64,000 nt of DNA, from NCBI GenBank assembly GCA_040902505.1, contig JBBDXE010000025.1, positions 16,221 through 80,220 of the forward strand. Direction: 5' to 3'. Position numbers and translations under genes: made by a program. Positions 270-12,421 of this stretch are shown here, piece after piece. The first letter of the stretch is position 1. The number at the start of each line of letters is the position of its first letter. Source of the stretch: Dehalococcoidia bacterium (lineage in GTDB: Bacteria; Chloroflexota; Dehalococcoidia; DSTF01; JACRBR01). Below the pieces are notes generated by a model. The model worked only from the letters and a program-made list of their open reading frames with translations, did no database searches and was not told the origin of the DNA.

Positions 270-1328
270 ATGACCACGCAGCAGATCGACGAAGCCAAAC
301 TGATGGAGTTCGTGGGGCAGGCCGTGAGCGACATGGGCGCGGTGCTGCTCGGAAACCTCGTGGCCATCGGCGACAAGCTGGGGCTGTACCGCGGCCTCGC
401 CGGGGCCGCGCCGATGACCCCCGGCGAGCTGGCGCAGAAGACCGGCACCGCCGAGCGCTACATCCGCGAGTGGCTCAACGCGCAGTCGGCCGGCGGGTAC
501 GTCACCTACACCGGCGACGGACGCTACACCCTCTCGCCCGAGCAGACCGAGGCCCTCACGAACGAAGAGAGCCCCGCCTTCGTGCTGGGCGGCTTCCAGG
601 GCATGACCGCCGCGACGATGGCCCGCCCCCGCCTCATCGAGGCGTTCAAGAGCGGCAAGGGCGTGGGATGGGACGAGCACGACCCGGACCTGTTCCAGGG
701 CACCGAGCGCTTCTTCCGCCCCGGCTACGCCGCCAACCTCGTCGCCGCGTGGCTCCCCGCGCTCGACGGCGTCGTGCCGAAGCTCGAGGCCGGTGCGTCC
801 GTCGCCGACGTCGGCTGCGGCCACGGCGCCTCGACGATCATCATGGCCCGCGCCTACCCGAAGTCGAAGTTCACCGGCTTCGACTACCACGCTCCGTCGA
901 TCGAGGCGGCGCGCAAGGCGGCGAAGGACGCCGGGGTGACGAACTGCGACTTCCAGGTCGCCTCCGCGAAGGACTACCCCGGCTCGTACGACCTCGTCTG
1001 CCACTTCGACTGCCTGCACGACATGGGCGATCCCGCCGGCGCCGCCGCCTACACGCTGAAGTCGCTCAAGCCCGGTGGCACCTGGATGCTCGTCGAGCCC
1101 TTCGCGAACGACGATGTCGCGGACAACCTGAACCTCGTCGGGAAGGTCTTCTACTCCGCGTCGACGTTCATCTGCACGCCGGCGTCGCTGGCGCAGGAAG
1201 TGGGGACGGCGCTGGGCGCGCAGGCGGGCGAGAAGCGCCTCGGCGAAGTCGCGCGGCAGGCCGGCTTCACCCGCTTCCGCCGCGCCGCCGAGACCCCCTT
1301 CAACCTCATCCTCGAAGCCCGCGCCTGA
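270..1328 (+). CDS. class I SAM-dependent methyltransferase
   Basis: 352-aa ORF with the Gly-rich SAM motif I VADVGCGHGAS, an acidic loop FDYHAPSIEAARKAA, the post-II motif LKPGGTWML and a DCLHDMGDP motif. Clean ATG start. High-GC codon usage with third-position G/C. Confidence 0.8.
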   Translation: MTTQQIDEAKLMEFVGQAVSDMGAVLLGNLVAIGDKLGLYRGLAGAAPMTPGELAQKTGTAERYIREWLNAQSAGGYVTYTGDGRYTLSPEQTEALTNEESPAFVLGGFQGMTAATMARPRLIEAFKSGKGVGWDEHDPDLFQGTERFFRPGYAANLVAAWLPALDGVVPKLEAGASVADVGCGHGASTIIMARAYPKSKFTGFDYHAPSIEAARKAAKDAGVTNCDFQVASAKDYPGSYDLVCHFDCLHDMGDPAGAAAYTLKSLKPGGTWMLVEPFANDDVADNLNLVGKVFYSASTFICTPASLAQEVGTALGAQAGEKRLGEVARQAGFTRFRRAAETPFNLILEARA

Positions 1329-1590: not shown

Positions 1591-2499
1591 CTACGTGCCC
1601 AGTGGCAAAACCCGAACCCGGCCTGCATCCAAGTCAAGCTCGACGCGGCCACCGCCCTGAGCGTTGATGTCGTTCCAAGCCCTGAAGCCCTGCATTATCG
1701 CGTCTTCCCACTCGCCGGCTGTTCGGCGACTCACTTCTAGGTGATCCGTCATCGTCTTGACCGTACGCAATAGCTCGTAGTCAAGCCGAATCAAGCCGCG
1801 AAGGAAGTCTCGCCGCTCCGCATAGCTGAACACCAAGGCAGTGATGCCTTCCTCGATGACGATTGCACGACCACCATCTTCCACCTCGTCAACTGTTGGG
1901 TCGCTTCTGCGCTTCCGGTCAAGAAACTTTCGTGTTAGCGGCGACCAGCCCAACACAGCGGCGTATGCCAGGTGCAGAACATCGTGGAATCGATACCCGT
2001 CTTCCACGTGACGATTGTCCGTGAGCGGATCTCCAAAGGGGGCACCATCGACGGTTGTCCTCGTGCGTGCCTCGCCACTTTCCGCGGCAAAGAACTCAGC
2101 GACCATTCGCCTAGAAAGCCGCTCGGTTGAGGGGAAACCCTCATCCAGCGATTGACGCGGGATCGGCAACTTCATCTGGTCGTGGCCTACTTGTTCCCAG
2201 CGCGCGCGACACTTCTGCAGATTGCCCTCTGCGACATCGGATAGGCGGAGCCCGAGTTTGGATGTCGAGCACGCGAGATACCAGAGGAGGTCGCCGAGTT
2301 CCTCGCGTGCCCTATCACGGAAGAGGAGGTACGCCTCACCGTCCCTCACATATTTCTTGTACTCGCTCAGGATCTCGCCCACCTCTCCAGCGAGCCCTAA
2401 GAGTGGAATCACGACGGCTGCAGCTGACTTCTCATCGCCTAGCGTCTTAGACACTTGATCCGTGTCAAGAGCCCTTGCCTGATACTCGTCTATGTCCAT
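1591..2499 (-). CDS. MazG-like all-alpha NTP pyrophosphohydrolase domain protein with uncharacterised C-terminal domain
   Basis: N-terminal region contains LGLAGEVGEILSEYKK...EELGDLLWYLA...NLQKCRARW, i.e. the EExxE/ELGDLL metal-binding helices of MazG/HisE-type pyrophosphatases. C-terminal ~170 aa unrecognised. Lies in the AT-richer island. Confidence 0.7.
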   Translation of the reverse strand: MDIDEYQARALDTDQVSKTLGDEKSAAAVVIPLLGLAGEVGEILSEYKKYVRDGEAYLLFRDRAREELGDLLWYLACSTSKLGLRLSDVAEGNLQKCRARWEQVGHDQMKLPIPRQSLDEGFPSTERLSRRMVAEFFAAESGEARTRTTVDGAPFGDPLTDNRHVEDGYRFHDVLHLAYAAVLGWSPLTRKFLDRKRRSDPTVDEVEDGGRAIVIEEGITALVFSYAERRDFLRGLIRLDYELLRTVKTMTDHLEVSRRTAGEWEDAIMQGFRAWNDINAQGGGRVELDLDAGRVRVLPLGT

Positions 2500-2603
2500 G
2501 GCCTACCTCCAGGTGGGACCGCGCATCCCCCTAGCTGCTACTGGAACTGCCGTGCATGTAGGCGCCAGCTTGCCAACGCCCGATCAAGGCGTAAACTGGC
2601 CAC

Positions 2604-3275
2604 GTGCAGTTCGAGCGCCGCGTGCTCTCGTTTGTCAGCTCCCTTACGGAAGCCGACTTGCCATCGCACTTCACGAATCCCTACAAGACCGGCCACACTG
2701 CTCGGAACCTCCTGCTCTTTCTCACACGGCGGGATCGTCTTGCTTGGACGCTCTTGGCGATCGGCGAGGCCCCTGGCTACCGCGGCGCAGTGATGTCAGG
2801 CGTCCCTCTCAGTTCTCTCGCAACGCTTGCGGATCCATGGGGCGATCCTTGGGAGTCGTTCGGTCCGTCCAAAGGGTATAGCTTCCCGCCGAACCCGTTG
2901 TACTGGCGAGAAGCAACGGCCACGATCATATGGGAATCCTTCGCGATGCACCTTGCCGACTCACCCCTTCCACTCACATGGAACGCCGTGCCATTTCATC
3001 CGCAGAAAAACGGCCGCGCTTCGAACGCGTCGCTGCGCGCAAATCAATTGCACATTGGCCAACCGTGGATCGAGCGGCTTCTCGAGCTCTTCCCAAACGT
3101 CTTCCCTGTTGCAGTTGGCCGGCGTGCCTGCGAAACGCTATGCCAGCTGAAGGTCGACCATGAGGCAATTCGCCATCCGTCACGAGGCGGGAAGCAAGAG
3201 TTCAGCATGGGACTCGCTCGTGTTCGCTCTCTGATGTCACCTCCTCCTGCAACGAGCTCGCTAACGGTCGCATGA
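2604..3275 (+). CDS. uracil-DNA glycosylase superfamily protein (family 4/5-like)
   Basis: Motif A AIGEAPGYRG (GE[AG]PG) about 55 aa from the N-terminus and motif B EAIRHPSRGG (HPS) near the C-terminus, with spacing as in the UDG fold. Confidence 0.65.
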   Translation: MQFERRVLSFVSSLTEADLPSHFTNPYKTGHTARNLLLFLTRRDRLAWTLLAIGEAPGYRGAVMSGVPLSSLATLADPWGDPWESFGPSKGYSFPPNPLYWREATATIIWESFAMHLADSPLPLTWNAVPFHPQKNGRASNASLRANQLHIGQPWIERLLELFPNVFPVAVGRRACETLCQLKVDHEAIRHPSRGGKQEFSMGLARVRSLMSPPPATSSLTVA

Positions 3276-3972
3276 CGCCGATCCTCCCGAGGCGCGCATC
3301 CGTGCTCACGACAACCAGCCCGCCGCAAGTGAGCCTGGACTCCGCCGCCACAAGTTGCTGCAATCGTGCTAAGCCAACGAAGTTACCATACGCTTTTTCA
3401 TGATAGTAATGGGAACGGTAGACAGCGGTCACAACCAGCTCGTCGGCATCGCGATGAAACTGAACTTCTGAGAGGCATGGGAACCCAACTCGTGCGATGG
3501 CCGTCCGTCCGGGGCGTTCAAGCACGATGGGCCCTGGATCTGCCCATTTGCCACCGTCTGGTGTTCGATGGTTGAGCGCATCGATCACATCCCTAATCTG
3601 ATTGACGTTGGTGCCGTCCCCTTCATAGTCCACCATGCGCCGAAAATACGAGTTGGTTGGCAACTTGGGTAAGAGACGGAAGCCGACTCGCTCCCAATCG
3701 ACTGCTCGTGCCACAGTTAGTGGCAAGATCGTGCGGGCGACGACCCTAACGCGATCTGTGGCAGCCGCGCCCAATGCAGCATCCAGACGGCGAGCAAACG
3801 CGGAGCAGTCAGCCTGCGGCTCGGCGATCGACACAACCAAATTACGGATCCGGTGACCCGGTTGTCTCAACAGCGCGAGCACCGCTGCTCTCCACGCATC
3901 CTCCAACGTGCGGGCATCGACCAGAACCGCACCCCTCACGGCACGGCTCCCGCGTCGGGAAGTACGCGACAA
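3202..3972 (-). CDS. divergent thymidylate synthase / dCMP hydroxymethylase-fold protein
   Basis: By-eye alignment to ThyA: VGFRLLPKLPT matches DGFPLVTTKR, TNVNQI matches TNIAYL, GFPCLSEVQF matches LPPCHALFQF (catalytic Cys), VYRSH matches LYQRSC, AYGNFVGLARL matches GLPFNIASYALL, CGGLVVVSTDARL matches VGDFVWTGGDTHL. An alternative GTG start at 3939 overlaps the upstream stop by 4 nt (GTGA). Confidence 0.65.
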   Translation of the reverse strand: MSRTSRRGSRAVRGAVLVDARTLEDAWRAAVLALLRQPGHRIRNLVVSIAEPQADCSAFARRLDAALGAAATDRVRVVARTILPLTVARAVDWERVGFRLLPKLPTNSYFRRMVDYEGDGTNVNQIRDVIDALNHRTPDGGKWADPGPIVLERPGRTAIARVGFPCLSEVQFHRDADELVVTAVYRSHYYHEKAYGNFVGLARLQQLVAAESRLTCGGLVVVSTDARLGRIGVMRPLASSLQEEVTSESEHERVPC

Positions 3973-4976
3973 TCACTCATTAGCTGCGGGGCCTTGGCCG
4001 CGAGCCGACGCGCCACGCTCTCGGTCACCGCTCTGAACACAGGCGCTCCCGCCGCCATGTTGTCGTCCCTCTTGGGCGGCCCAATTCTGCGCAGCACTCT
4101 GGCCTCTGCAGCTCCCAGCAACCTCAATGCCCGCAGCCGGCTGATCGTGGCGGCGTGACTGACCCCGAACCTAGATCCAAGCTCGTGAATCCGGTCCAGA
4201 TTCAGAGCCCGGTGGCCGAGGCACTCGCGCACTGCCCTCTGCGGTAGCAGGAACGCCGCCGCGAACACGTCCGCGCGCAACTCGATCCTCTGGCGGGGTC
4301 CCGGCCTTGGCAATTCGGCGGCAGCGCACGCGTATCCGCCGCCCTCGCGATCCAACAAGAAATGCGCTAATTCGTGGGCTAGTGTGAACCGCTGTCTTAC
4401 CGGTGGGTGGTTACTGTTGACAAGCACCGCACTCGATGCGCTGTCTGTAACCACTATGCACCCGGAAATCGACGAACTGACCGGAAGTCGGGCAAGCACC
4501 ACTCCCACGCCTGCCTCCTGAACGAATCCTGACAGTGGAATCACCGGATCCTCTGCTGACAACCCCGTTGCACCACGGAACCAACGTGCGGCCAGTTCGC
4601 CGGCTTGTACTGGAGGAAGCCGGGACACCCGTGGGGGAATAGATAGAGGCATCCAATGCGGATCTGATCCTAGCGCGGACTGAACGGCCGAGAACCAAGC
4701 AAGTTGCGGTTCGTCGTCCGCATGTATGGTTACGCCTCTTAGCCTCATTTTAGGTAGAACTGGACGGCCTCCCTCCCGCGGCGTCAGAAGCAGGTCTGGG
4801 GTTACAGCCAGCAGCGCCGCTAGCCTCACCAACTCCGCAGCCGTGACTGGTCTCGTACCCCGCTCCATACGGCTAACGACCGTCCGGTCGAGGCCTAAGG
4901 CTCTCGCTAGGTCAGACTGGTTCCAACCCCGGCGATAGCGCGCCTGCTGGATATTCCATCCAATTTGTGTGTCCAC
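3936..4976 (-). CDS. fused HTH-XRE DNA-binding / ImmA-IrrE (DUF955) metallopeptidase-domain regulator
   Basis: N-terminal QQARYRRGWNQSDLARALGLDRTVVSRMERGTRPVTAAELVRLAALL is a Cro/C1-type HTH. C-terminal AHELAHFLLD (HExxH) plus RADVFAAAFLLP is typical of ImmA/IrrE. A Pro/Arg-rich linker lies between the two domains. Confidence 0.75.
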   Translation of the reverse strand: MDTQIGWNIQQARYRRGWNQSDLARALGLDRTVVSRMERGTRPVTAAELVRLAALLAVTPDLLLTPREGGRPVLPKMRLRGVTIHADDEPQLAWFSAVQSALGSDPHWMPLSIPPRVSRLPPVQAGELAARWFRGATGLSAEDPVIPLSGFVQEAGVGVVLARLPVSSSISGCIVVTDSASSAVLVNSNHPPVRQRFTLAHELAHFLLDREGGGYACAAAELPRPGPRQRIELRADVFAAAFLLPQRAVRECLGHRALNLDRIHELGSRFGVSHAATISRLRALRLLGAAEARVLRRIGPPKRDDNMAAGAPVFRAVTESVARRLAAKAPQLMSDCRVLPDAGAVP

Positions 4977-5245: not shown

Positions 5246-6493
5246 ATGCCGTTCGCCCAGTCCCTGCGTTGCCGCGAGTGCAACCGTGAGTATCCCCTCG
5301 AGCCCCTGCACGTCTGCGAGTTCTGCTTCGGCCCCCTCGAAGTCGCCTACGACTACACCGCGATGCACCGCACCGTCACCCGCGAGTCCATCGAGCGCGG
5401 GCCCAACTCCGTCTGGCGCTACGCAGACCTCCTCCCCGCCGACCCCGCTCAGGCCGTCGACATCAACGCCGGCTTCACCCCCCTCGTCCGCGCCCGCAAC
5501 CTGGGCGAGCACCTGGGCCTGCGCAACCTCTGGCTCAAGAACGACTGCGCCAACCCCACCTGGTCCTTCAAGGACCGCGTCGTCACCGTCGCCGCGACGA
5601 AGGCCCGCGAGTTCGGCTTCGACACCCTCGCCTGCGCCTCCACCGGCAACCTCGCGAACAGCGTCTCCGCCCACGCCGCCGCCGCCGGCCTGAAATCGAT
5701 CGTCTTCATCCCCCACGACCTCGAGCGCGGCAAGATCCTCGGCTCCAGCGTCTACGGCGCCACCCTCGTCGCCGTCGACGGCAACTACGACGACGTCAAC
5801 CGCCTCTGCTCCGAGCTGGCCGACAGCTACCCGTGGGCGTTCGTCAACATCAACATGCGGCCGTACTACGCCGAGGGCAGCAAGACCCTCGGCTACGAGG
5901 TCGCCGAACAGCTCGGCTGGCGCGCCCCGGAGCACGTCGTCGTGCCGATGGCGTCGGGCTCGCTGTACGTGAAGATCTGGAAGGGGCTGCAGGAGCTGGC
6001 CCGCCTCTGGCTCATCGACAGCGTGCAGACGAAGATGTCCGGCGCCCAGGCCCGCGGCTGCTCCCCCATCGTCACCGCCTACGAGGCCGGCACCACCAAC
6101 GTCCGCCCCGTCCGGCCCGACACCATCGCCAAGTCGCTGGCCATCGGCAACCCCGCCGACGGCTACTACGCCCTCAAGGTCATGCAGGAGTCCGGCGGCT
6201 ACGGCGTCGCCGCCTCCGACGACGAGATCATCGACGGGATCAAGCTCCTCGCCGAGTCCGAGGGCATCTTCGCCGAGACCGCCGGCGGCGTCGTCACCGC
6301 CTGCCTGAAGAAGCTCGCCCAGGCCGGACGCATCGCCCCCGACGAGGTCACCGTCGCCTACATCACCGGCTCCGGCCTGAAGACGCAGGAGGCCGTCGAG
6401 GACCACGTCGCCCAGCCCGTCCACATCGCCCCCACCATCGCGTCGTTCGAGGAGCTGGTGCGCCCCCGCGAGCGCGAGCTGGCGGCATCATGA
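5246..6493 (+). CDS. threonine synthase family PLP enzyme (ThrC/MetM-like) with N-terminal Cys4 zinc ribbon
   Basis: CRECNREYPLEPLHVCEFC zinc ribbon. PLP lysine region NPTWSFKDR, Gly-rich loop ASTGNLANS and an ITGSGLK C-terminal motif are typical of ThrC-family fold-type II enzymes. Confidence 0.85.
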   Translation: MPFAQSLRCRECNREYPLEPLHVCEFCFGPLEVAYDYTAMHRTVTRESIERGPNSVWRYADLLPADPAQAVDINAGFTPLVRARNLGEHLGLRNLWLKNDCANPTWSFKDRVVTVAATKAREFGFDTLACASTGNLANSVSAHAAAAGLKSIVFIPHDLERGKILGSSVYGATLVAVDGNYDDVNRLCSELADSYPWAFVNINMRPYYAEGSKTLGYEVAEQLGWRAPEHVVVPMASGSLYVKIWKGLQELARLWLIDSVQTKMSGAQARGCSPIVTAYEAGTTNVRPVRPDTIAKSLAIGNPADGYYALKVMQESGGYGVAASDDEIIDGIKLLAESEGIFAETAGGVVTACLKKLAQAGRIAPDEVTVAYITGSGLKTQEAVEDHVAQPVHIAPTIASFEELVRPRERELAAS

Positions 6494-6691: not shown

Positions 6692-6934
6692 ATGGCACGC
6701 CAGCGCGTTAAGTTCACCTTCCCGCAAGAACTCATCACCCTGCCCCTCATCTACGAGCTGGGCAAGAACTTCACCCTCGTCACCAACATCCGCCGCGCCG
6801 ACGTCACCGAGGACCGCGGCTGGATCGTCCTCGAGGTCGAGGGCGACCTGACGGAGATCGAGCGGGCGCTGGACTGGGTCTCGGCGAAGGGCGTCCGCGT
6901 CGACCCCGTCCCCGGCGACATCGTCGAAGGCTAA
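6692..6934 (+). CDS. NIL-domain small protein
   Basis: 81 aa: MARQRVKFTFPQELITLPLIYELGKNFTLVTNIRRADVTEDRGWIVLEVEGDLTEIERALDWVSAKGVRVDPV. Ferredoxin-like NIL domain pattern, as at the MetN C-terminus. Confidence 0.6.
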   Translation: MARQRVKFTFPQELITLPLIYELGKNFTLVTNIRRADVTEDRGWIVLEVEGDLTEIERALDWVSAKGVRVDPVPGDIVEG

Positions 6935-7030
6935 CGAGCGGTCAGCCATCAGCCAGTCAGCAGTCAGCAGCGACCGATGAGCAGCCACCACGGACCAGCA
7001 ACCGGCGACCAGTAACCAGGACACCAGACC

Positions 7031-7312
7031 ATGGCCCAGATCCGCATCCCGGCACCGCTCCGCAAGCTCACGAACGACATCGAGATCGTGCAGGCGGAGG
7101 CCGCCACCCTCGCCGAGGCCATCGACCGCCTCGAGGGCGACTTCCCCGGCATGAAGGAGCGCCTCTGCGACGAGACCGGCCAGCTCCGCCGCTTCGTCAA
7201 CGTGTACGTCAACGGCGAAGACGTCCGCTTCCTCGACAACCTCGGCACGCCGCTGAAGCCCGGCGACGAGGTGAGCATCGTCCCCGCCGTCGCGGGCGGG
7301 TCCGGGGCGTAG
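7031..7312 (+). CDS. MoaD/ThiS/CysO-family sulfur-carrier protein (GG followed by SGA extension)
   Basis: 93-aa beta-grasp pattern FVNVYVNGEDV...LKPGDEVSIVPAVAGGSGA. The Gly-Gly is followed by three extra residues. Confidence 0.7.
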   Translation: MAQIRIPAPLRKLTNDIEIVQAEAATLAEAIDRLEGDFPGMKERLCDETGQLRRFVNVYVNGEDVRFLDNLGTPLKPGDEVSIVPAVAGGSGA

Positions 7313-7469
7313 CGCCGGCCCGGTCAGCGCGCCAGCCGTCGTCAGGCGGTCAGCCCCCGCGTCCCCCGTGGCGAGGGGGCTCTTGATTGGCCAATTGCAT
7401 TCGGCGAAAATCCGGGCCTTTCGGGGGTCTGCGGATTCGGGGCGGGGGGCGTTTGGCTTGATTGGGTTA

Positions 7470-7870
7470 GCGCGCATGGGCGTCGACCTCACCCCCGGCC
7501 TTCGGCCTGGCCTCGCCGAGGCGAGTCTGCGACCTCTCCACACGATGGAGAGGGAGGAGTGGTGGAGGGCGTTCATTGGGGGCCTCCGCGGTCGAGGGAC
7601 TGGAGGTGGCGGAGGATGGTGTTGCGGAGGCGCATCTTGCGGGCGACGTCGAGGGGCGGGGCGCGGCGAACCTCACCCCCGGCCTTCGGCCTGGCCCTCT
7701 CCACATCGTGGAGAGGGAGGAGGGGAGCGGGGCTTTCGTCGAGCGCACCGCCGGCCGGGGGCCCACACCCGATTTCGGCGTCGAGGGACTGGAGGTGGAG
7801 GTAGATGGCGTTGCGGAGGCGCTCTTTGCGGACGGGGTCGAGGGGCGGGCGGCGGCGGGGGGCACGGCGG
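7470..7870. repeat. tandem direct repeat, about 190-bp unit x ~2 copies with internal hairpins
   Basis: Unit acctcacccccggccttcggcctggcc...ctctccaca[ct][cg][ag]tggagagggaggag...tcgagggactggaggtgg.ggaggatggtgttgcggaggcgc.tcttgcgg at about 7476-7665 and 7666-7860. ggccttcggcc and ctctcca/tggagag are hairpin-forming. Spans the 3' end of CDS 7573-8232 and continues beyond its stop. Confidence 0.6.
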
Positions 7871-8232
7871 AGGGGCCGACCGGTGAGGGCGTCGCGGTTG
7901 GAGGCGTGCTCGTAGTCCGCGACGGAATTCTGGTGGCGGTTGGCGGCGTCGTCGCGGGCGGCGTCGTCGAGGGCGGTGGTGATGCGGCGGCGGAAGTTGA
8001 GGGCGACGGGGCGCTCGCCGAGGATGCGGAGGGCGTCGATGACGGTCTCGCGGATGCGGCCGTCGCGGAGGGCGTTGCGGCGGCCGAGGCCGAGGAGGAC
8101 GCTGCGGGCGACGGGGTCCTGCATGAGGGCGTAGATGACGGCGCGGACGCGGGGGGAGTAGCGGCCGGACTTGAGGCCGTTGAGGTTGCCTTTGGGGGCG
8201 CCGGCGCCGGGGCGGGATCCTCCGTGGGGCAT
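7573..8232 (-). CDS. hypothetical protein, paralog A (conserved N-terminus GAGAPKGNLNxLKSGRYSPRVRAV; C-terminus encoded by tandem repeats)
   Basis: N-terminal ~110 aa are homologous to the ORF at 11915-12421; the 5' ends are also similar at the DNA level. The C-terminal half reads through the 190-bp tandem repeat (PLLPLHDVERARPKAGGEV repeated), so the true stop is uncertain. Confidence 0.45.
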   Translation of the reverse strand: MPHGGSRPGAGAPKGNLNGLKSGRYSPRVRAVIYALMQDPVARSVLLGLGRRNALRDGRIRETVIDALRILGERPVALNFRRRITTALDDAARDDAANRHQNSVADYEHASNRDALTGRPLRRAPRRRPPLDPVRKERLRNAIYLHLQSLDAEIGCGPPAGGALDESPAPLLPLHDVERARPKAGGEVRRAPPLDVARKMRLRNTILRHLQSLDRGGPQ

Positions 8233-8237
8233 CGCGA

Positions 8238-8333
8238 GTCTCGCAGTCTGTCAGTCTGCCGGTCTGTCAGTCGGTCAGTCGGTCAGTCGGTCAGTCTGTC
8301 GGGCGGTCAGGCGGTCAGGCGGTCAGGCGGTCA
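8238..8333. repeat. octamer microsatellite (GGTCAG[TG]C)n, about 11 copies, immediately 5' of the start of CDS 7573-8232
   Basis: tctgtcagtctgccggtctgtcagtcggtcagtcggtcagtcggtcagtctgtcgggcggtcaggcggtcaggcggtcaggcggtca. Confidence 0.7.
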
Positions 8334-8571
8334 TAGTGTGGCGGTGTGGCGGGGGAACTCGAAGCGGTGGGTGACACTGGCGGCCGTGAGCGGTGAGCCG
8401 TGAGCCGTGAGCGGCGGGGGCGGGCGCGCGGGTGTGGCGCCTGGGCCCCGCCCCGGACGCAGCTGAAGCCTACGTCCCTACGAGATCCGGCCCGGTCCGG
8501 GAGCCAGCCCTCACCGGCCTCCGCCTACGTCCGACATCCGACTTCCAGCCGCCCTGCCGTATCATCCCGCC

Positions 8572-9381
8572 ATGACCGACGACCTGACCCGCCGCGCCCT
8601 CGCCGTGAACGAGGCCCAGCTCGCGCTCGCCAGCCTCGCCTTCGACACCGACGGCGCCCACTTCGTCCGCAACCCGGACTTCCCCCGCGTGCACGACGCC
8701 AACCACGCGTCGCACGTCACGGCCGCCACCCCCGACGAGATCGACCGCCTCCTCGCGCGCGTCGAGCGGGAGTTCGCCGGCCTCGCGCATCGCGTCTTCC
8801 ACACAGACGCCACCACGCCACCCGCCTTCGAGGCGCGGCTCGCGCTCGAGGGCTACGCGCCCAGTGACACTATCGTGATGCTCCTCGAGGGACCGTTGCG
8901 ATTCTTCCGAGGAAGGACCCCGGCCTGCGACATCCGCCCCGCCGGCGATGAGGCCAGATGGGCCGCGTACGCCGCCCTCCGCCTGCTCGACGGGGACGAG
9001 TACCTGCGCCGCACCGGCCGCAGCCCCGACCCCGCCTTCACCGCCGAGATGACCACCAACCGCCGCCGCATGTCGCCGCCCGTGCGCGTCTGGCTCGCCC
9101 ACGCCGATGGCGCTCCGGTCGGCTACTGCAGCTCGTGGGAGGGGACGGAGGGCGTCGGCCTGGTCGAGGACCTGTTCGTGCACCCCGACGCGCGCCGCCG
9201 CGGGATCGCCACCGCGCTGCTGCACCACTGCGTCGCCGACGCTCGCGCGTCGATGCCGACCGGCGACGGCCCCGTCGTCATCACCGCCGACCCCACCGAT
9301 ACGCCCGGCCGCATCTACGCCAACCTCGGCTGGCGCCCCACCGCCCTCAAGCGCTCCTGGCTGCGCATCGTCGAGCCGTGA
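8572..9381 (+). CDS. GNAT family N-acetyltransferase
   Basis: Motif A VGLVEDLFVHPDARRRGIATALL (acetyl-CoA binding Q/RxxGxG/A) in the C-terminal half of a 269-aa ORF. Confidence 0.8.
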   Translation: MTDDLTRRALAVNEAQLALASLAFDTDGAHFVRNPDFPRVHDANHASHVTAATPDEIDRLLARVEREFAGLAHRVFHTDATTPPAFEARLALEGYAPSDTIVMLLEGPLRFFRGRTPACDIRPAGDEARWAAYAALRLLDGDEYLRRTGRSPDPAFTAEMTTNRRRMSPPVRVWLAHADGAPVGYCSSWEGTEGVGLVEDLFVHPDARRRGIATALLHHCVADARASMPTGDGPVVITADPTDTPGRIYANLGWRPTALKRSWLRIVEP

Positions 9382-9673
9382 GCCCCGAGCCGTAAACGCC
9401 GGGAGGCGGCCATGGGACCCGCGGGGACGCCGCCGGGGACGAGGGGGAACCACAGATTTCACAGATGGCCACAGATTCTCCACCTCCACCACCCCCGGCG
9501 CCGTAGCGACAGGTCTTCAGACCTGTCCGCCTCCACCCGTCGCGTACGCGTACCCCGGAGGCAGCGCGAAGCGCGGGGCATCCGCCCGGGGCGGCTCCCC
9601 GGCCGTGCCTCCGCCCGGGCACACACCACCCCGCGTACGGGGTCCTCTCTGGGCCCAACTGATGCGCTAAGCG

Positions 9674-9867
9674 ATCGTCATCGAGAAGGCGGACGGCAAC
9701 TACTCCGCCTACGTCCCCGACCTCCCCGGCTGCATCGCCACCGGCGCCACCCCTGCGGAGACCGAAGACCAGATCCGCGAGGCCATCCGCTTCCACCTCG
9801 AAGGCCTCCGCGACGACGGCCTCCCCTCCCTCCTCCCACCACTGTCATCGACTACATCGAGCCCTGA
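9674..9867 (+). pseudogene. HicB-family antitoxin remnant (no start codon, internal frameshift)
   Basis: Reads IVIEKADGNYSAYVPDLPGCIATGATPAETEDQIREAIRFHLEGLRDDGLP, the HicB/UPF0150 signature. It then shifts frame in a C-run (ccctccctcctccc) into ...LPPPTTVIDYIEP*. It is preceded by ATG-CGC-TAA only. Confidence 0.55.
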
Positions 9868-9912
9868 CCCCACCCAACTCCCGGCCTCCGCCCTCTATCA
9901 GCCCATGTCCAA

Positions 9913-9995
9913 CACCCCCGGCCACATCTACGCCCACCTAGGCTGGCGGCCCGCCGCCAGCAACGTTCCTGGCTCGGCCCGGCGTTGGTCCGTAG
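9913..9995 (+). repeat. duplicated 3' fragment of the GNAT gene (direct repeat of 9301-9381)
   Basis: acccccggccacatctacgcccacctaggctggcggcccgccgcc compared with acgcccggccgcatctacgccaacctcggctggcgccccaccgcc. Encodes GHIYAHLGWRPAA versus GRIYANLGWRPTA. Confidence 0.5.
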
Positions 9996-10088
9996 CATCA
10001 CACCCGCGTCCGCCTGGGGCTGTATCGGCGTGCCGGCGAGGGCCTGTACACTGGCCTTAAGCGCGTCGCAGGCCGAGGCATCGTCGGT

Positions 10089-11820
10089 GTGGATCGCCAT
10101 GGCGTCGGTGTGAATGAGGATGGACATGTGACGACCGAGCAAGGCAGTGCGACGCTGGCGCAGTCAGCCCTGGCCCTTATCGTCCTGACCCTGGTCTTTG
10201 TGTCAGGCATTGGACTTCTCGCGTTTGCATCTTTTGTTGCATTCCGAGATGGCTTCGCTAACGCCCTCGTTGTTCTGTATATGCTCGGCATACTTTGTCT
10301 CGCTGGCACGCTCGTTGCCCTAAACATGGTCGGCTCTCTGACAGTGAAGCACAATGATACCGAGGTCAAACTCGAACAACCTCGGCCGCGGCCCGCGTCA
10401 TCAAACCCAAACGTTGAGGCAGCCCCCGGCACTGCTGAACCTGAAAGAAGGAGGGACGATTCCGCCAGCGAGGCTGCCACGGCAGCTGCTCCAACAGATG
10501 GCGGCAAGAGCTTGTTCTCCGAAGCAATCGACGCGTGGGCAAATCATGACTATGCGTCATTCGACCTGAAGATGATCGCCTACATAGAACAGCAGCAGGA
10601 GGGAGATAAGGCTACGTTCGACGCCTTTCGGCTGTCTTGGCTGTATGAGGCCGGCCAAGGACGCCGACTCCAAGAATTGCATGCCCTCCGCAGGGACAAT
10701 CCCTCTGCTCCCGCGGTTCTGCTTCGACTCGCCGAGGCCTACATGTTTACTGATCAGCCAAAGGTCGCCCTAGATCTCTACGAGCAGGGCGCCGCCCTTT
10801 CAGGCCTCTCTGTGGATCATCGCCGTGAAATTCTGACCGGCCAAGTTCGCGCGCGGATCAAACTTAAGGAATACGAGGCGTCTGAAGGACGCCTGAGGGT
10901 TGCTGAGTTGGAAGACCCAGCACCCCAGTGGCAACACTCCATCCACAAACTGTTCGCCGAGGTCTACGACGCTTGGGATGATCAAGTGCGTAAGCATTGG
11001 CATCTTGAGCAGGCGGGTGGAGGCGAATCCCGGCGACCTCTCTACACGGTTCGACCTGGCCTACAGCTATGGACGTTCCGGCGACAGCCTCTTGTCTCTG
11101 TACCACTACGAGATCTTACGCCGCCAACGCGCTTACGCCATGGAGATAAATAATCTCGGCGTTGCTCTCCAACAGATGGACATGCCAATAACCGCGGCCT
11201 TCTACTACAAGGAAGCGATTGACAAAGGGAACACGTTGTCTTCGGCGAACCTCGCTCGGGTCATGCTCAAGAGTGGCCTCGTGGTCGAAGCGAAACAAGT
11301 GTTGGACGCGGCGCTCTCCCTCAAGGACAGCGAGGGTGAAGCCGTCGAAGTCGATGACAACGTTCATGAAGCACACGCTGTAATCACGCGGGCTGAGGAG
11401 GAAGAGCGCGAGAGGATGATACGAATTGTTGAGGCCAGCCGCCTAGAGCGGCAACTCTTTCTTGCATCGATGGAGAAAGATCAAGTCGCAACAACCATTC
11501 TTCGAGACGACGAGTTCTTGGGTGAGTGGGACACGAACTTTGGCAAGCTAACATTTGCCAAGGAAGGACCCGATTACTCGGCAGCCTTCAAGACGGACGA
11601 CCTTTGGGATTGGTCGCTCAGTGGTGGAATCGATCGCAAAAGGAGAACCTTTACGTTCCGATGGAGCACCAACAAGCACGACTACCGCCGTCCCGATAAC
11701 GACGAAGGCACTGGCTACTTCGTGTTCCGCGAGAACACGTTCGAGGGCTTCCTTCGGAACAGGCCTGACAAGGGAGAAGTCATGGCCGTTACGGGCCGCC
11801 ACCCCTCAGACACCCCCTAA
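10089..11820 (+). pseudogene. membrane-anchored TPR-repeat protein, apparently frameshifted near 11000-11020 (two overlapping ORFs 10089-11153 and 10900-11820)
   Basis: GTG start. Two N-terminal TM helices (LALIVLTLVFVSGIGLLAFASFVAF; LVVLYMLGILCLAGTLVAL), then TPR-like helices (LLRLAEAYMFTDQPKVALDLYEQ). The +1-frame ORF continues with further TPR-like repeats (DLAYSYGRSGDSLLSLYHYEI; NNLGVALQQMDMPITAAFYYKEAIDKGN). AT-richer than surroundings. Confidence 0.5.
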
Positions 11821-11914
11821 TCGGCGGAGTGACACAACCCGATAAGAGATCCGCCCCCGCCTCCTCCACGATCCCTCCAGGCTGACCCGCTGACAGACTG
11901 ACAGGCTCACACCA

Positions 11915-12421
11915 ATGCCAAGAGGAGGCCGCCGCCCCGGAGCCGGAGCCCCGAAGGGCAACCTCAACGCCCTCAAGTCCGGGCGCTACTCCCCGCGCGT
12001 CCGCGCCGTCCTCTACGCTCTCGTCGATGACCCCACCACCCGCTCCGTCCTCCTCCAGGTGGGCCTCCGCGGCGCCGCCCCCCGCGGCCGCCTGCGTGAC
12101 ACCATCACCGACACCATCCGCCTCCTCCACGACCGCCCCGTCTCCGACGAGTTCCGGGCCCGCGTCCGCGCCCTCCTCGGCCGCGACGACGACGCCCGGA
12201 TCGCCCGCCGCGTCCAGAGCGCCATGGACAGCTACCGCAAAGGGACCGGTCAGAGCGCCCTCGCCGAAGGTCCCCTCCGCCGGGGCACCACGCCCGCGGT
12301 AAAGCCGCCGCGCCCGCCGCGCGTCCGCTACCGTCCCGTCCTCCCCCCCGGGCCGCATCTTCTGGGTGGACCTGGAGGAGCCGCCGGAAGCCTCCACCAC
12401 CCCGCCCGAAGCGTGAGGTGA
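11915..12421 (+). CDS. hypothetical protein, paralog B (N-terminus GAGAPKGNLNALKSGRYSPRVRAVLYAL)
   Basis: 168-aa ORF. N-terminal ~110 aa are homologous to paralog A (7573-8232, opposite strand). C-terminus is Pro/Arg-rich. Confidence 0.45.
   Translation: MPRGGRRPGAGAPKGNLNALKSGRYSPRVRAVLYALVDDPTTRSVLLQVGLRGAAPRGRLRDTITDTIRLLHDRPVSDEFRARVRALLGRDDDARIARRVQSAMDSYRKGTGQSALAEGPLRRGTTPAVKPPRPPRVRYRPVLPPGPHLLGGPGGAAGSLHHPARSVR

What the first reader, a model, noticed from the sequence alone, without database searches (positions are those of the whole stretch)
3202..3972. Divergent thymidylate-synthase-fold protein with conserved catalytic Cys motif but altered substrate-binding residues
Multiple collinear ThyA motifs are recoverable by eye: GFRLLPKLPT/GFPLVTTKR, FPCL/PPCH (nucleophile), VYRSH/LYQRSC, AYGNFVGLARL/LPFNIASYALL, VVVSTDARL/VWTGGDTHL. 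ThyA residues corresponding to the Asp of QRSCD and the His of DTHL are replaced (H and R respectively). Such replacements are characteristic of TS-family members that hydroxymethylate or otherwise modify dUMP/dCMP rather than methylate dUMP.
Basis: partly seen in the sequence, partly recalled or inferred. Interest (0 to 1): 0.75.

Follow-up and report, generated by a model that had tools for sequence, protein, structure and literature searches.

The report
Divergent thymidylate-synthase-like enzyme in inducible cassette
The gene encodes a real but very unusual relative of thymidylate synthase that keeps the catalytic cysteine yet has lost the folate-binding residues, and it belongs to a widespread, uncharacterised, non-phage gene cassette (protease-repressor, MazG-kinase, uracil-DNA-glycosylase or DNA-base kinase) that probably makes or handles an abnormal uracil nucleotide in genetic conflict.

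Summary

The family keeps the E. coli ThyA equivalents Cys146, Tyr94, Arg166 and Asn177. It has lost Asp169, Glu58, His147, the Arg126/127 pair, Phe176 and the C-terminal lid. It has gained an invariant Arg112 and a basic residue at position 193. It therefore matches none of the known signatures for ThyA, hydroxymethylases or 5-hydroxy-dCMP synthases.

About 1,000 representative relatives exist, but only 5 are close.

In 39 of 39 long related loci the gene sits next to an ImmA/IrrE protease. MazG-MazG_C, a C1 peptidase and an ACP-like protein with a phosphopantetheinyl transferase are frequent neighbours. Loci carry either a 5-hmdU DNA kinase (33/39) or a UDG-like glycosylase, never both. The window holds the minimal UDG-type cassette (1591-4976), a low-GC island.

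The family is on 24 plasmids, in 0 of 50,697 phage genomes and in 2 of 2.9 million viral contigs.

Best reading: a folate-atypical enzyme that modifies C5 of a uracil nucleotide, acting in an inducible conflict or defence cassette. The chemistry is inferred, not shown.

The parts
3202..3939 (-). TS-like gene (245 aa from GTG 3939; the maximal ORF reaches TTG 3972). Predicted catalytic residues: Cys166, Tyr109, Arg186, Asn197. Family-specific residues: Arg112 and Lys193.
   Evidence: ORF. Start codon and GTGA overlap. Homologue N-termini. Fold. Residue mapping. Conservation.
3936..4976 (-). Fused XRE-type HTH and ImmA/IrrE (M78) metallopeptidase, a repressor/protease switch. It is translationally coupled to the TS-like gene.
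   Evidence: Pfam Peptidase_M78 E 1.2e-18 and HTH_3 E 4.3e-12. PADLOC capP E 2e-28 and RmrA E 1.7e-22. ImmA lies next to the TS-like gene in 39 of 39 long loci.
2604..3275 (+). UDG-superfamily glycosylase-like gene (GEAPGYRG and HPS motifs, no Fe-S cysteines). It is convergent with the TS-like gene and overlaps its 3' end by 74 nt.
   Evidence: Pfam UDG E 0.13 here, 1.2e-6 and 1.5e-4 in orthologues. Alignment and motifs. Present in all 7 UDG-type loci and never together with HMUDK. RefSeq names the Rhizobium orthologue uracil-DNA glycosylase.
1591..2499 (-). MazG nucleotide pyrophosphohydrolase fused to MazG_C, which the literature calls a predicted kinase domain.
   Evidence: Pfam MazG_C E 2.5e-69 and MazG E 2.2e-6. 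Present in 25 of 39 long family loci. 'Predicted nucleotide kinase (MazG-C)' in PMC13092281.
1591..4976 (.). The whole four-gene cassette. It is a low-GC island between housekeeping-type genes: a methyltransferase at 270-1328 and a thrC-like gene at 5246-6493.
   Evidence: GC is 0.60 in 2001-4000 against about 0.70 elsewhere. No further cassette genes occur anywhere in the 64 kb. Flanking genes.

Best explanation
The gene encodes a catalytically competent but highly divergent member of the thymidylate-synthase fold. It is the enzymatic core of a horizontally acquired four-gene cassette: HTH-ImmA, then the TS-like gene, a UDG-like glycosylase, and MazG-MazG_C.

Shown:
- The TS fold.
- Invariance of the Cys nucleophile (Cys166), Tyr109, Arg186 and Asn197.
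- Loss of the canonical folate and phosphate ligands.
- Translational coupling to an ImmA/IrrE repressor-protease.
- Membership of a cassette conserved across phyla, in which a 5-hmdU DNA kinase or a UDG-like glycosylase are alternative partners.

Inferred:
- Cys166 attacks C6 of a uracil nucleotide, most simply dUMP, and the enzyme installs or processes a one-carbon (5-hydroxymethyl-type) or other C5 substituent rather than making dTMP.
- MazG-MazG_C reshapes the dNTP pool by hydrolysing the canonical nucleotide and phosphorylating the modified one.
- The modified base, once in replicating DNA, is phosphorylated by the DNA kinase (majority type) or excised by the UDG-like enzyme (the type in this window).
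- The HTH-ImmA switch keeps the cassette silent until DNA damage or infection. The whole would then act as an inducible conflict or anti-phage 'DNA-poisoning' module, or alternatively as a modification module of a mobile element.
For: Fold and homology.

Catalytic core: across 90 loci, Y109, R112, C166, Y185, G196 and N197 are invariant (90/90), and R186 is present in 88/90.

Uracil specificity: the Asn177 rule from PMC13326640.

Not a housekeeping ThyA:
- Pfam score 12.7 bits against a 24.3 cutoff.
- D169 is replaced by Tyr and is variable in the family; F176 by Gly; G173 by Arg/Lys (89/90); the protein ends near ThyA residue 224.

Cassette:
- ImmA 39/39, HMUDK 33/39, C1 peptidase 28/39, MazG-MazG_C 25/39.
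- HMUDK and UDG-like are mutually exclusive: 25 vs 2, with 0 loci holding both.
- In 34 of 39 long loci the TS-like gene is the only TS-family gene. In most HMUDK loci it is therefore the only candidate source of the kinase's known substrate, 5-hmdU (PMC8989533).
- ImmA stop and TS-like start overlap here and in L001.

Conflict and mobile-element context:
- 15 of 24 plasmids are conjugative.
- ArdA plus a relaxase, an integrase, and BrxC-like DUF499 are neighbours.
- The region is a low-GC island.
- A TS + dNMP kinase + HMUDK system (DS-4) is experimentally validated as anti-phage defence, and MazG/MazG-C/UDG systems are predicted to be defensive (PMC13092281).
Against: - No biochemical data exist for any member.
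- Loss of Glu58, Asp169 and the C-terminal lid makes ordinary CH2-THF chemistry doubtful, so the source of any one-carbon unit is unknown.
- Five loci also carry a canonical-type TS with dCTP deaminase and dTMP-kinase homologues. This argues that the TS-like protein does something different from a dUMP hydroxymethylase.
- The window's own cassette has no HMUDK, ACP or C1 peptidase.
- The census is dominated by the majority clade (80 loci picked through one peptide pattern). The window's clade is known from only six loci, and all five of the related ones are short contigs.
- PADLOC has no model for the TS-like, UDG-like or MazG proteins.
Confidence: 0.5

Rival explanations
1. Folate-independent processing enzyme. 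The TS-like protein does not install the carbon. Instead it uses Cys166 to attack C6 of a 5-(phospho)hydroxymethyl-uracil nucleotide or DNA base and eliminates the leaving group, giving the exocyclic C5-methylene intermediate. It then passes that intermediate to a nucleophile, for example the phosphopantetheine thiol of the adjacent ACP-like protein. It would be a functional analogue of phage aGPT-Pplase.
For: - The Cys, Tyr and Asn core is retained while the folate ligands are lost. A new, conserved basic pair (Arg112 in 90/90, Arg/Lys193 in 89/90) sits where folate binds in ThyA.
- HMUDK is present in 33 of 39 loci, but no aGPT-Pplase was found among recurrent neighbours.
- A tight ACP-like / TS-like / PPTase gene trio occurs in about 15 loci.
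- aGPT-Pplase uses exactly this Michael-addition and phosphate-elimination logic (PMC8989533).
- Loci with a second, canonical-type TS imply that the two have non-redundant roles.
Against: - No TS-fold enzyme is known to act on DNA or on a 5-phosphomethyl substrate.
- The window's cassette lacks HMUDK and ACP/PPTase.
- In most loci nothing else would make 5-hmU.
Confidence: 0.17
2. Flavin-dependent pyrimidine C5 hydroxylase, like phage AfhB or RB69 gp48, but acting on dUMP to give 5-hydroxy-dUMP.
Against: The diagnostic D169N is absent (Tyr here, variable in the family). N177D and L143E are also absent. Sequence identity is 12-13%. The family is not phage-encoded. HMUDK partners point to a hydroxymethyl group, not a hydroxyl group.
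Confidence: 0.1
3. Toxin or sensor of a RosmerTA-like module. The HTH-M78 protein is an antitoxin/repressor. The TS-like protein is a toxic effector that drains or traps dUMP, or a nucleotide-binding sensor. No modified base ends up in DNA.
For: - The HTH-ImmA protein matches PADLOC RmrA models (E 1.7e-22) and NCBIfam 'spr1629 family repressor/antitoxin'.
- The two genes overlap and always co-occur.
Against: The multi-enzyme cassette (MazG-kinase, UDG or HMUDK, PPTase) is hard to explain for a simple two-gene toxin-antitoxin pair. Strict conservation of the full catalytic set argues for turnover rather than mere binding.
Confidence: 0.1
4. An ordinary thymidylate synthase (a short ThyA like the archaeal MJ0757 type) that supplies dTMP.
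For: Best library hit is TIGR03283 'thymidylate synthase', E 3.6e-10. JGI and RefSeq label some relatives 'thymidylate synthase'.
Against: - 39.7 bits against a 174.55 cutoff for TIGR03283, and 12.7 against 24.3 for Pfam.
- Essential ThyA residues are missing.
- The distribution is patchy and island- or plasmid-borne, under an ImmA switch.
- Only 5 close relatives exist among 5.8 billion proteins.
Confidence: 0.03
5. A prophage DNA-hypermodification gene that protects viral DNA from restriction, as in hmU phages.
For: The partner genes (HMUDK, MazG, dCTP deaminase, dTMP-kinase-like) are classic phage hypermodification genes. Two IMG/VR contigs carry the cassette.
Against: 0 of 50,697 phage genomes hold a relative, and only 2 of 2.9 million viral contigs do, against 526 metagenome hits. 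No phage structural genes or integrase lie near the window cassette. No aGPT-Pplase was found.
Confidence: 0.05

Closest known systems
Classical thymidylate synthase ThyA (Pfam PF00303, EC 2.1.1.45)
   Same: Same fold. Collinear core motifs. Equivalents of Cys146, Tyr94, Arg166, Ser167 and Asn177 are conserved.
   Different: Equivalents of Glu58, His147, Asp169, Leu172, Phe176 and Arg126/127 are lost, and the C-terminal ~40 residues are absent. New invariant Arg112 and Arg/Lys193. Scores below the Pfam gathering threshold. Lies on an island under an ImmA switch rather than being a housekeeping gene.
Phage flavin-dependent dCMP 5-hydroxylase (HY126 AfhB, PDB 9iqc/9iqu; RB69 gp48 and DLP3 gp80 5hodCMP synthases)
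   Different: Those enzymes carry D169N, N177D and L143E and are phage-encoded. This family has Tyr or a variable residue, Asn, and Gly at those positions, and is absent from phage genomes.
Pyrimidine hydroxymethylases (T4 gp42 dCMP HMase, SPO1-type dUMP HMase, MilA CMP HMase)
   Different: No acidic residue at the L143 position (Gly163). Asp169 and the folate-binding C-terminus are not retained.
DefensePredictor DS-4 (TS + dNMP kinase + 5-hmdU DNA kinase + TIR + Nmad2; validated in E. coli) and its predicted MazG/MazG-C/UDG systems (PMC13092281)
   Same: Bacterial, non-phage cassettes that combine a TS-family enzyme, nucleotide kinases, HMUDK, MazG-MazG_C and UDG. A defence role is shown for DS-4 and predicted for the MazG/UDG type.
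   Different: The DS-4 TS is a 361-aa canonical-type TS (Pfam E 1e-43) that resembles the second TS seen in 5 of the loci surveyed here, not this family. DS-4 has TIR and Nmad2 and no ImmA, C1 peptidase or ACP. Whether the published predicted system contains this TS-like family could not be checked.
HTH + M78 (ImmA/IrrE) switches: ImmR/ImmA, CapH/CapP of CBASS, RmrA of RosmerTA
   Same: The upstream gene has the same HTH plus M78 architecture, and the regulated gene is coupled immediately downstream.
   Different: The cargo is a nucleotide-enzyme cassette. In many relatives the M78 protein is joined by a C1 papain-like peptidase and a chagasin-like (I42) inhibitor domain.
Phage thymidine hypermodification pathway (dUMP HMase, dNMP kinase, 5-HMUDK, aGPT-Pplase)
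   Same: Shares HMUDK, MazG, dCTP-deaminase and dTMP-kinase-like genes, and the logic of C6 thiol attack.
   Different: No aGPT-Pplase. Not phage-borne. Under a repressor-protease switch. The window variant replaces HMUDK with a UDG-like glycosylase.

Membership tests
Thymidylate synthase superfamily (fold level) | TS alpha/beta fold with the central sheet | tested here: met
Thymidylate synthase superfamily (fold level) | Catalytic Cys nucleophile (Ec Cys146) in a P-C motif | tested here: met
   Cys166 in FPCLS aligns with PC(H). It is present in 90 of 90 family sequences.
ThyA, dTMP-forming (PF00303 / EC 2.1.1.45) | Score above the curated family threshold | tested here: not met
   Pfam 12.7 bits against 24.3. 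TIGR03283 39.7 bits against 174.55.
ThyA, dTMP-forming (PF00303 / EC 2.1.1.45) | Folate ligands Asp169, Phe176, Leu172 and the C-terminal lid | tested here: not met
   Asp169 is replaced by Tyr189 (variable in the family), Phe176 by Gly196, Leu172 by Glu192, and Gly173 by Lys/Arg193. The alignment ends at Ec 224 of 264.
ThyA, dTMP-forming (PF00303 / EC 2.1.1.45) | Phosphate-binding Arg quartet (Arg21, Arg166, Arg126', Arg127') and Glu58 | tested here: not met
   Only Arg186 (Arg166) is conserved. No Arg pair is found in either alignment of the 140-148 segment. Position 80, opposite Glu58, is Arg here and Asn in the family. An acidic residue at position 64 (Asp/Glu in 88 of 90) might substitute, but this is unproven.
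ThyA, dTMP-forming (PF00303 / EC 2.1.1.45) | dUMP-specifying Asn177 and catalytic Tyr94 | tested here: met
   Asn197 and Tyr109 are present in 90 of 90.
Pyrimidine hydroxymethylases (T4 gp42, MilA, SPO1 type) | Acidic residue at the Ec Leu143 position that admits water | tested here: not met
   Gly163 (Gly in 72 of 90, Ser in 12 of 90). The rule is taken from PMC13326640. A small residue might still admit water, so the function is not excluded.
Flavin-dependent 5-hydroxy-dCMP synthases (AfhB, RB69 gp48) | D169N together with N177D (and L143E) | tested here: not met
   Tyr189, Asn197 and Gly163. This holds despite the best structural match.
Flavin-dependent 5-hydroxy-dCMP synthases (AfhB, RB69 gp48) | Bound flavin cofactor | not testable with these tools
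   Needs purified protein.
ImmA-linked TS-like / MazG_C / (HMUDK or UDG) cassette (unnamed; defined here) | TS-like gene with the signature Y-F-x-R ... F-P-C-L-S ... Y-R-[NS]-[HQ]-x4-[RK]-A-Y-G-N, adjacent to an M78 peptidase gene | tested here: met
   The window protein scores E 1.4e-69 against the family HMM. ImmA lies directly upstream with overlapping stop and start. ImmA is adjacent in 39 of 39 long loci.
ImmA-linked TS-like / MazG_C / (HMUDK or UDG) cassette (unnamed; defined here) | MazG-MazG_C plus either HMUDK or a UDG-like gene | tested here: met
   The window has MazG-MazG_C (E 2.5e-69) and a UDG-like gene, and no HMUDK.
Validated anti-phage defence system | Protection against phage when expressed; match to a known defence model | tested here: not met
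   PADLOC matches only the HTH-ImmA gene (capP, RmrA). It has nothing for the TS-like, UDG-like or MazG genes. The phenotype cannot be tested here.
RosmerTA-type toxin-antitoxin | RmrA-like HTH plus M78 antitoxin with an adjacent toxin | tested here: inconclusive
   The RmrA models match (E 1.7e-22 to 1e-15). Toxicity of the TS-like protein is unknown, and the extra conserved enzymes do not fit a two-gene module.

The most novel reading that the evidence does not exclude
The family performs chemistry new to the TS fold and independent of folate. Cys166 generates the C5-exocyclic-methylene uracil intermediate from a phosphorylated hydroxymethyl group (made by MazG_C or HMUDK). Alternatively, it couples the intermediate to the phosphopantetheine thiol of the co-encoded ACP-like protein. 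The whole ImmA-gated cassette would be a new kind of inducible immune system that poisons replicating DNA with a non-canonical uracil derivative, which is then phosphorylated or excised.
Probability: 0.2. Interest if true: 0.85.

Novelty: new variant of a known kind. Interest (0 to 1): 0.62.

Why it matters
TS-fold enzymes are textbook folate enzymes. Only in 2025-26 was a flavin-dependent hydroxylase branch recognised. This family is a third kind of departure. It keeps the covalent-catalysis core, replaces the folate pocket with conserved basic residues, and is spread across at least six phyla (Chloroflexota, Pseudomonadota, Actinomycetota, Cyanobacteriota, Bacteroidota, Halobacteriota) on islands and conjugative plasmids rather than in phages.

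Its invariable linkage to an ImmA/IrrE switch, and its alternative pairing with a DNA-base kinase or a DNA glycosylase, gives a concrete and testable model for how bacteria might use phage-style thymidine-modification chemistry for conflict. It would also put mechanism behind a class of systems (TS/HMUDK, MazG-C/UDG) that has so far been validated or predicted only at the phenotype level.

The family's active-site signature would also correct database labels: 'thymidylate synthase', 'hypothetical protein', and here a gene call truncated to 144 aa.

Tried and rejected
- Single-sequence phmmer against the PDB gave only chance hits (WIF-1, E 1.5). Profiles were needed.
- Pfam on the protein alone is sub-threshold, and PADLOC has no model.
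- The afdb50 fold library was unavailable.
A 28-sequence alignment worked.
- The GTDB genome scan with close-clade patterns found one distant locus only.
- Burroughs 2015 and Iyer 2013, the likely first descriptions of MazG_C/HMUDK systems, are not held, so a prior description of this TS-like family could not be excluded. Literature searches for the cassette found nothing beyond DefensePredictor. Two searches were unproductive.
- Promoter, terminator and operator scans around the cassette were at chance level.
- I checked whether the recurrent neighbours include aGPT-Pplase. They do not: only a TylF-like MTase, a metallophosphatase, a BrxC-like DUF499 protein and unknowns.
- My by-eye pairing of TIF(81-83) with ThyA TIW(78-80) was dropped in favour of the hhalign placement opposite the Glu58 helix. 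That N-terminal register remains low-confidence.
- Housekeeping ThyA and phage hypermodification were rejected as main readings (see rival explanations).
Full report
**1. The observation**

The window has a 256-codon ORF at 3202..3972 on the minus strand. The frame contains a GTG at 3939-3937 that overlaps the TGA stop (3938-3936) of the upstream gene as GTGA. Starting there gives 245 aa, with the same distance to the conserved EDAW motif as in the five close homologues. In homologue locus L001 the two genes also overlap by 4 nt. I take GTG 3939 as the start. NCBI's annotation of the same MAG (Dehalococcoidia bacterium, WEC75_08595) calls only the last 144 aa, from Met113. That is too short, because the N-terminal half is conserved and folds with the rest.

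**2. Is it a thymidylate-synthase relative?**

Yes.

- Sequence alone is weak: Pfam PF00303 E 0.07 and nothing by phmmer against the PDB. NCBIfam's archaeal TS model gives E 3.6e-10.
- Profiles are decisive. A 112-sequence family profile hits ThyA chains at E 1e-4. hhalign against a ThyA/TS profile gives 97.1% probability, E 5.5e-11, over 197 columns. 36 of 112 members hit PF00303 on their own.
- AlphaFold2 with 6 sequences gave pLDDT 79, and with 112 sequences pLDDT 90.9 and pTM 0.88.
- Foldseek against the PDB and BFVD gives the same picture.

**3. Residue mapping**

The mapping uses E. coli ThyA numbering. I wrote the reference sequence from memory and checked it by length (264 aa) and by all 18 landmark residues.

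| ThyA residue | This protein |
|---|---|
| Tyr94 | Tyr109 |
| Cys146 | Cys166 |
| His147 | Leu167 |
| Leu143 | Gly163 |
| Gln165 | Tyr185 |
| Arg166 | Arg186 |
| Ser167 | Ser187 |
| Cys168 | His188 |
| Asp169 | Tyr189 |
| Gly173 | Lys193 |
| Phe176 | Gly196 |
| Asn177 | Asn197 |

- Asp205/His207 align with Asp225/Arg227 by HMMER, but hhalign shifts this by two residues.
- The Arg126/Arg127 pair has no counterpart in either plausible register.
- The chain ends near ThyA residue 224, so the C-terminal folate lid is absent.
GFRLLPKLPT/GFPLVTTKR is not. The Asp of QRSCD is replaced by Tyr, not His.

**4. The family**

- Close relatives are very rare: five sequences at 51-61% identity among 5.8 billion proteins, all from short metagenome contigs.
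- The wider family is sizeable: 1,063 representatives at E <= 1e-3 and 642 at E <= 1e-10 among 1.84 billion cluster representatives.
- Named sources include Thermomicrobiales, Ktedonobacteraceae and Pyruvatibacter; Balneolaceae; and Streptomyces, Rhizobium, sphingomonads, Nostoc, Allocoleopsis and Haloarcula plasmids.
- Across 90 loci the following are invariant or nearly so: Trp27, Thr81, Pro84, Tyr109, Phe110, Arg112, Pro165, Cys166, Tyr185, Arg186, Ala194, Tyr195, Gly196, Asn197, Gly200, Leu201. Position 193 is Arg/Lys in 89 of 90, position 188 is His/Gln in 90 of 90, and position 64 is Asp/Glu in 88 of 90.
- Position 189 (ThyA Asp169) is variable.
- The covalent-catalysis core and uracil recognition are therefore under strong constraint. 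The folate pocket has been rebuilt with conserved basic residues.

**5. Comparison with the published specificity code**

PMC13326640 summarises the code as follows:
- N177 means dUMP and Asp means dCMP.
- Hydrophobic L143 means methyl and Asp/Glu means hydroxymethyl.
- D169N marks flavin-dependent 5-hydroxy-dCMP synthases.

This family has Asn, Gly and a variable residue at those positions. It is predicted to act on uracil and fits none of the three characterised product classes.

**6. Genomic context**

The window carries four genes:
- 3936-4976 (-): fused XRE HTH plus ImmA/IrrE M78 peptidase (Pfam E 1.2e-18; PADLOC capP 2e-28, RmrA 1.7e-22).
- 3202-3939 (-): the TS-like gene.
- 2604-3275 (+): a UDG-superfamily protein with GEAPGYRG and HPS motifs but without the Fe-S cysteines of family 4.
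- 1591-2499 (-): MazG plus MazG_C (E 2.5e-69).

The block has 60% GC against about 70% around it. It lies between a methyltransferase and sulfur and amino-acid metabolism genes. No other cassette gene occurs in the 64 kb.

The five close homologues show the same neighbours on their short contigs. These are ImmA upstream in every locus where the upstream gene could be assessed, then UDG-like, MazG-MazG_C, a dTMP-kinase-like gene or a radical-SAM gene.

**7. Census of the wider family**

I built local HMMs from the neighbours and scanned 90 loci. Of these, 80 came from a metagenome scan that found 526 relatives.

| Neighbour | Loci of the 39 that are >= 9 kb |
|---|---|
| ImmA | 39 |
| 5-hmdU DNA kinase (PF18723) | 33 |
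| C1 papain-like peptidase | 28 |
| MazG-MazG_C | 25 |
| ~100-aa ACP-like protein | 23 |
| 4'-phosphopantetheinyl transferase | 20 |
| Second, canonical-type TS | 5 |
| dTMP-kinase-like | 4 |
| UDG-like | 4 |
| dCTP-deaminase-like | 3 |

- A separate HTH gene precedes ImmA in 29 loci.
- RefSeq annotates the small protein as acyl carrier protein. It has a conserved DS motif, but Pfam PP-binding reaches only E 0.026.
- Several ImmA proteins carry a chagasin-like I42 inhibitor domain next to the C1 peptidase.
- HMUDK and UDG-like never co-occur. Among loci with at least 3.5 kb on both sides, 25 have HMUDK only, 2 have UDG only, none have both and 1 has neither. All 7 UDG loci lack HMUDK.
- The window is therefore the minimal UDG-type version of a modular system.

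Caveat: the 80 loci were chosen through one peptide pattern and as the best matches to the majority clade. The percentages describe that clade.

**8. Where the system lives**

- No relative occurs in 50,697 phage genomes.
- Two occur among 2.9 million IMG/VR contigs, both with the same cassette.
- 24 plasmid records hold it, 15 of them conjugative.
- Chromosomal copies lie next to ArdA plus a relaxase, an integrase plus SNF2, IS605/TnpB and UvrA-like genes, and BrxC-like DUF499 genes in four loci.
- This is the footprint of a mobile-element or defence-island cargo, not of a phage DNA-modification gene.

**9. What is known**

- 5-HMUDK phosphorylates 5-hmdU in DNA. In phages the product is then processed by aGPT-Pplase through a Cys attack on C6, and the 5-hmdU comes from a TS-family dUMP hydroxymethylase (PMC8989533).
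- DefensePredictor (PMC13092281) experimentally validated an E. coli system, DS-4, made of a canonical-type TS, a dNMP kinase, HMUDK, TIR and Nmad2. It also listed MazG/MazG-C/UDG-containing systems as predicted but unvalidated defence.
- The DS-4 TS resembles the second TS of five of the loci surveyed here, not this family.
- The two Aravind-lab papers that probably first described MazG_C/HMUDK neighbourhoods are not in the library. I cannot say whether the TS-like family was noted there. Nothing else in the searchable literature describes it.

**10. Mechanism**

Shown: the fold, the conserved catalytic core, the loss of folate and phosphate ligands, coupling to an ImmA switch, and the modular cassette with a DNA-base kinase or a glycosylase.

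Inferred (about 0.5): the enzyme activates C6 of a uracil nucleotide and makes or handles a C5-substituted dU. MazG-MazG_C adjusts the pool. The modified base in DNA is phosphorylated (HMUDK type) or excised (UDG type). The HTH-ImmA switch restricts this to stress or infection.

- The strongest argument for a 5-hmdUMP-forming role is pathway-hole logic. In 34 of 39 long loci this is the only TS-family gene, so in most HMUDK loci nothing else could supply the kinase's substrate.
- The strongest argument against is the rebuilt cofactor pocket, together with the five loci that also carry a complete canonical module (TS2, dCTP deaminase, dTMP kinase).
- That is why I rate the folate-independent processing or transfer model as the main rival (0.17) and as the most novel reading.
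- The flavin hydroxylase, toxin/sensor, ordinary ThyA and prophage readings are less likely, for the reasons given under the rivals.

**11. Verdict**

The protein is not a dTMP synthase, but it does not show the signature of known hydroxymethylases or hydroxylases and is not phage-associated.
- It is a new variant of a known kind: an uncharacterised TS-fold clade with its own active-site signature, embedded in a conserved, inducible, non-phage cassette.
- Interest is moderate to high because the chemistry and the biological role are both open and directly testable.

Noticed in passing
window 3202-3972 (-): The public annotation of this MAG (WEC75_08595, 144 aa) starts the gene at Met113 and so cuts off the conserved N-terminal half of the TS fold. 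The likely true start is GTG 3939, which overlaps the upstream stop as GTGA.
   Followed up: yes
window 3202-3275: The TS-like and UDG-like genes converge and overlap by 74 nt. Both have C-terminal tails about 10-25 aa longer than their homologues.
   Followed up: partly
window 270-1328 (+) and L001 3620-4396 (-): An Rv2258c-like winged-HTH SAM methyltransferase flanks the cassette in the window. A 37%-identical homologue flanks the cassette in the unrelated contig L001. It could be a facultative cassette member or a shared insertion site.
   Followed up: partly
L009, L017, L028, L029, L032, L040, L045, L046, L050, L060, L066, L077, L078, L080, L089 (gene trio around the TS-like gene): In about 15 loci the TS-like gene is sandwiched between a ~100-aa ACP-like protein (conserved DS motif; RefSeq 'acyl carrier protein') and a 4'-phosphopantetheinyl transferase. 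This hints at a carrier-protein step in the chemistry. The trio is absent from the window.
   Followed up: partly
L008 10719-12514, L009 9707-11445, L007 6324-7999: The ImmA peptidase is often followed by a C1 papain-like peptidase, and the ImmA protein itself can carry a chagasin-like (Inhibitor_I42) domain. This looks like a built-in protease/inhibitor pair and suggests a second regulatory layer.
   Followed up: no
window 2604-3275 (+) and orthologues in L001, L002, L004, L007: The UDG-like proteins of the window's clade form a subfamily with GEAPGYRG / WNAVPFHP / HPSRGGK motifs and no Fe-S cysteines. L008 and L055 have a classical family-4-type UDG instead. The L007 orthologue lacks the motif-A Glu.
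   Followed up: partly
window 8229-8340: A tandem array of about 14 copies of an 8-nt unit (AGTCGGTC-like) lies immediately upstream of the minus-strand ORF 7573-8232.
   Followed up: no
window 7573-8232 (-) and 11915-12421 (+): Two inverted paralogous genes share 56% identity over 125 aa and the N-terminus MPxGGxRPGAGAPKGNLNxLKSGRYSPRVRAV. They bracket about 3.7 kb that includes a GNAT acetyltransferase and a low-GC (0.58) stretch at 10-12 kb. ORF 7573-8232 also contains internal 78-nt direct repeats. This may be a mobile or rearranging element.
   Followed up: partly
L006 (Balneolaceae MAG) 6782-12180: This is the most complete variant found: HTH, ImmA, TS-like, dCTP-deaminase-like, dTMP-kinase-like, 5-hmdU DNA kinase and a second canonical-type TS, all in one operon-like row.
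   Followed up: partly
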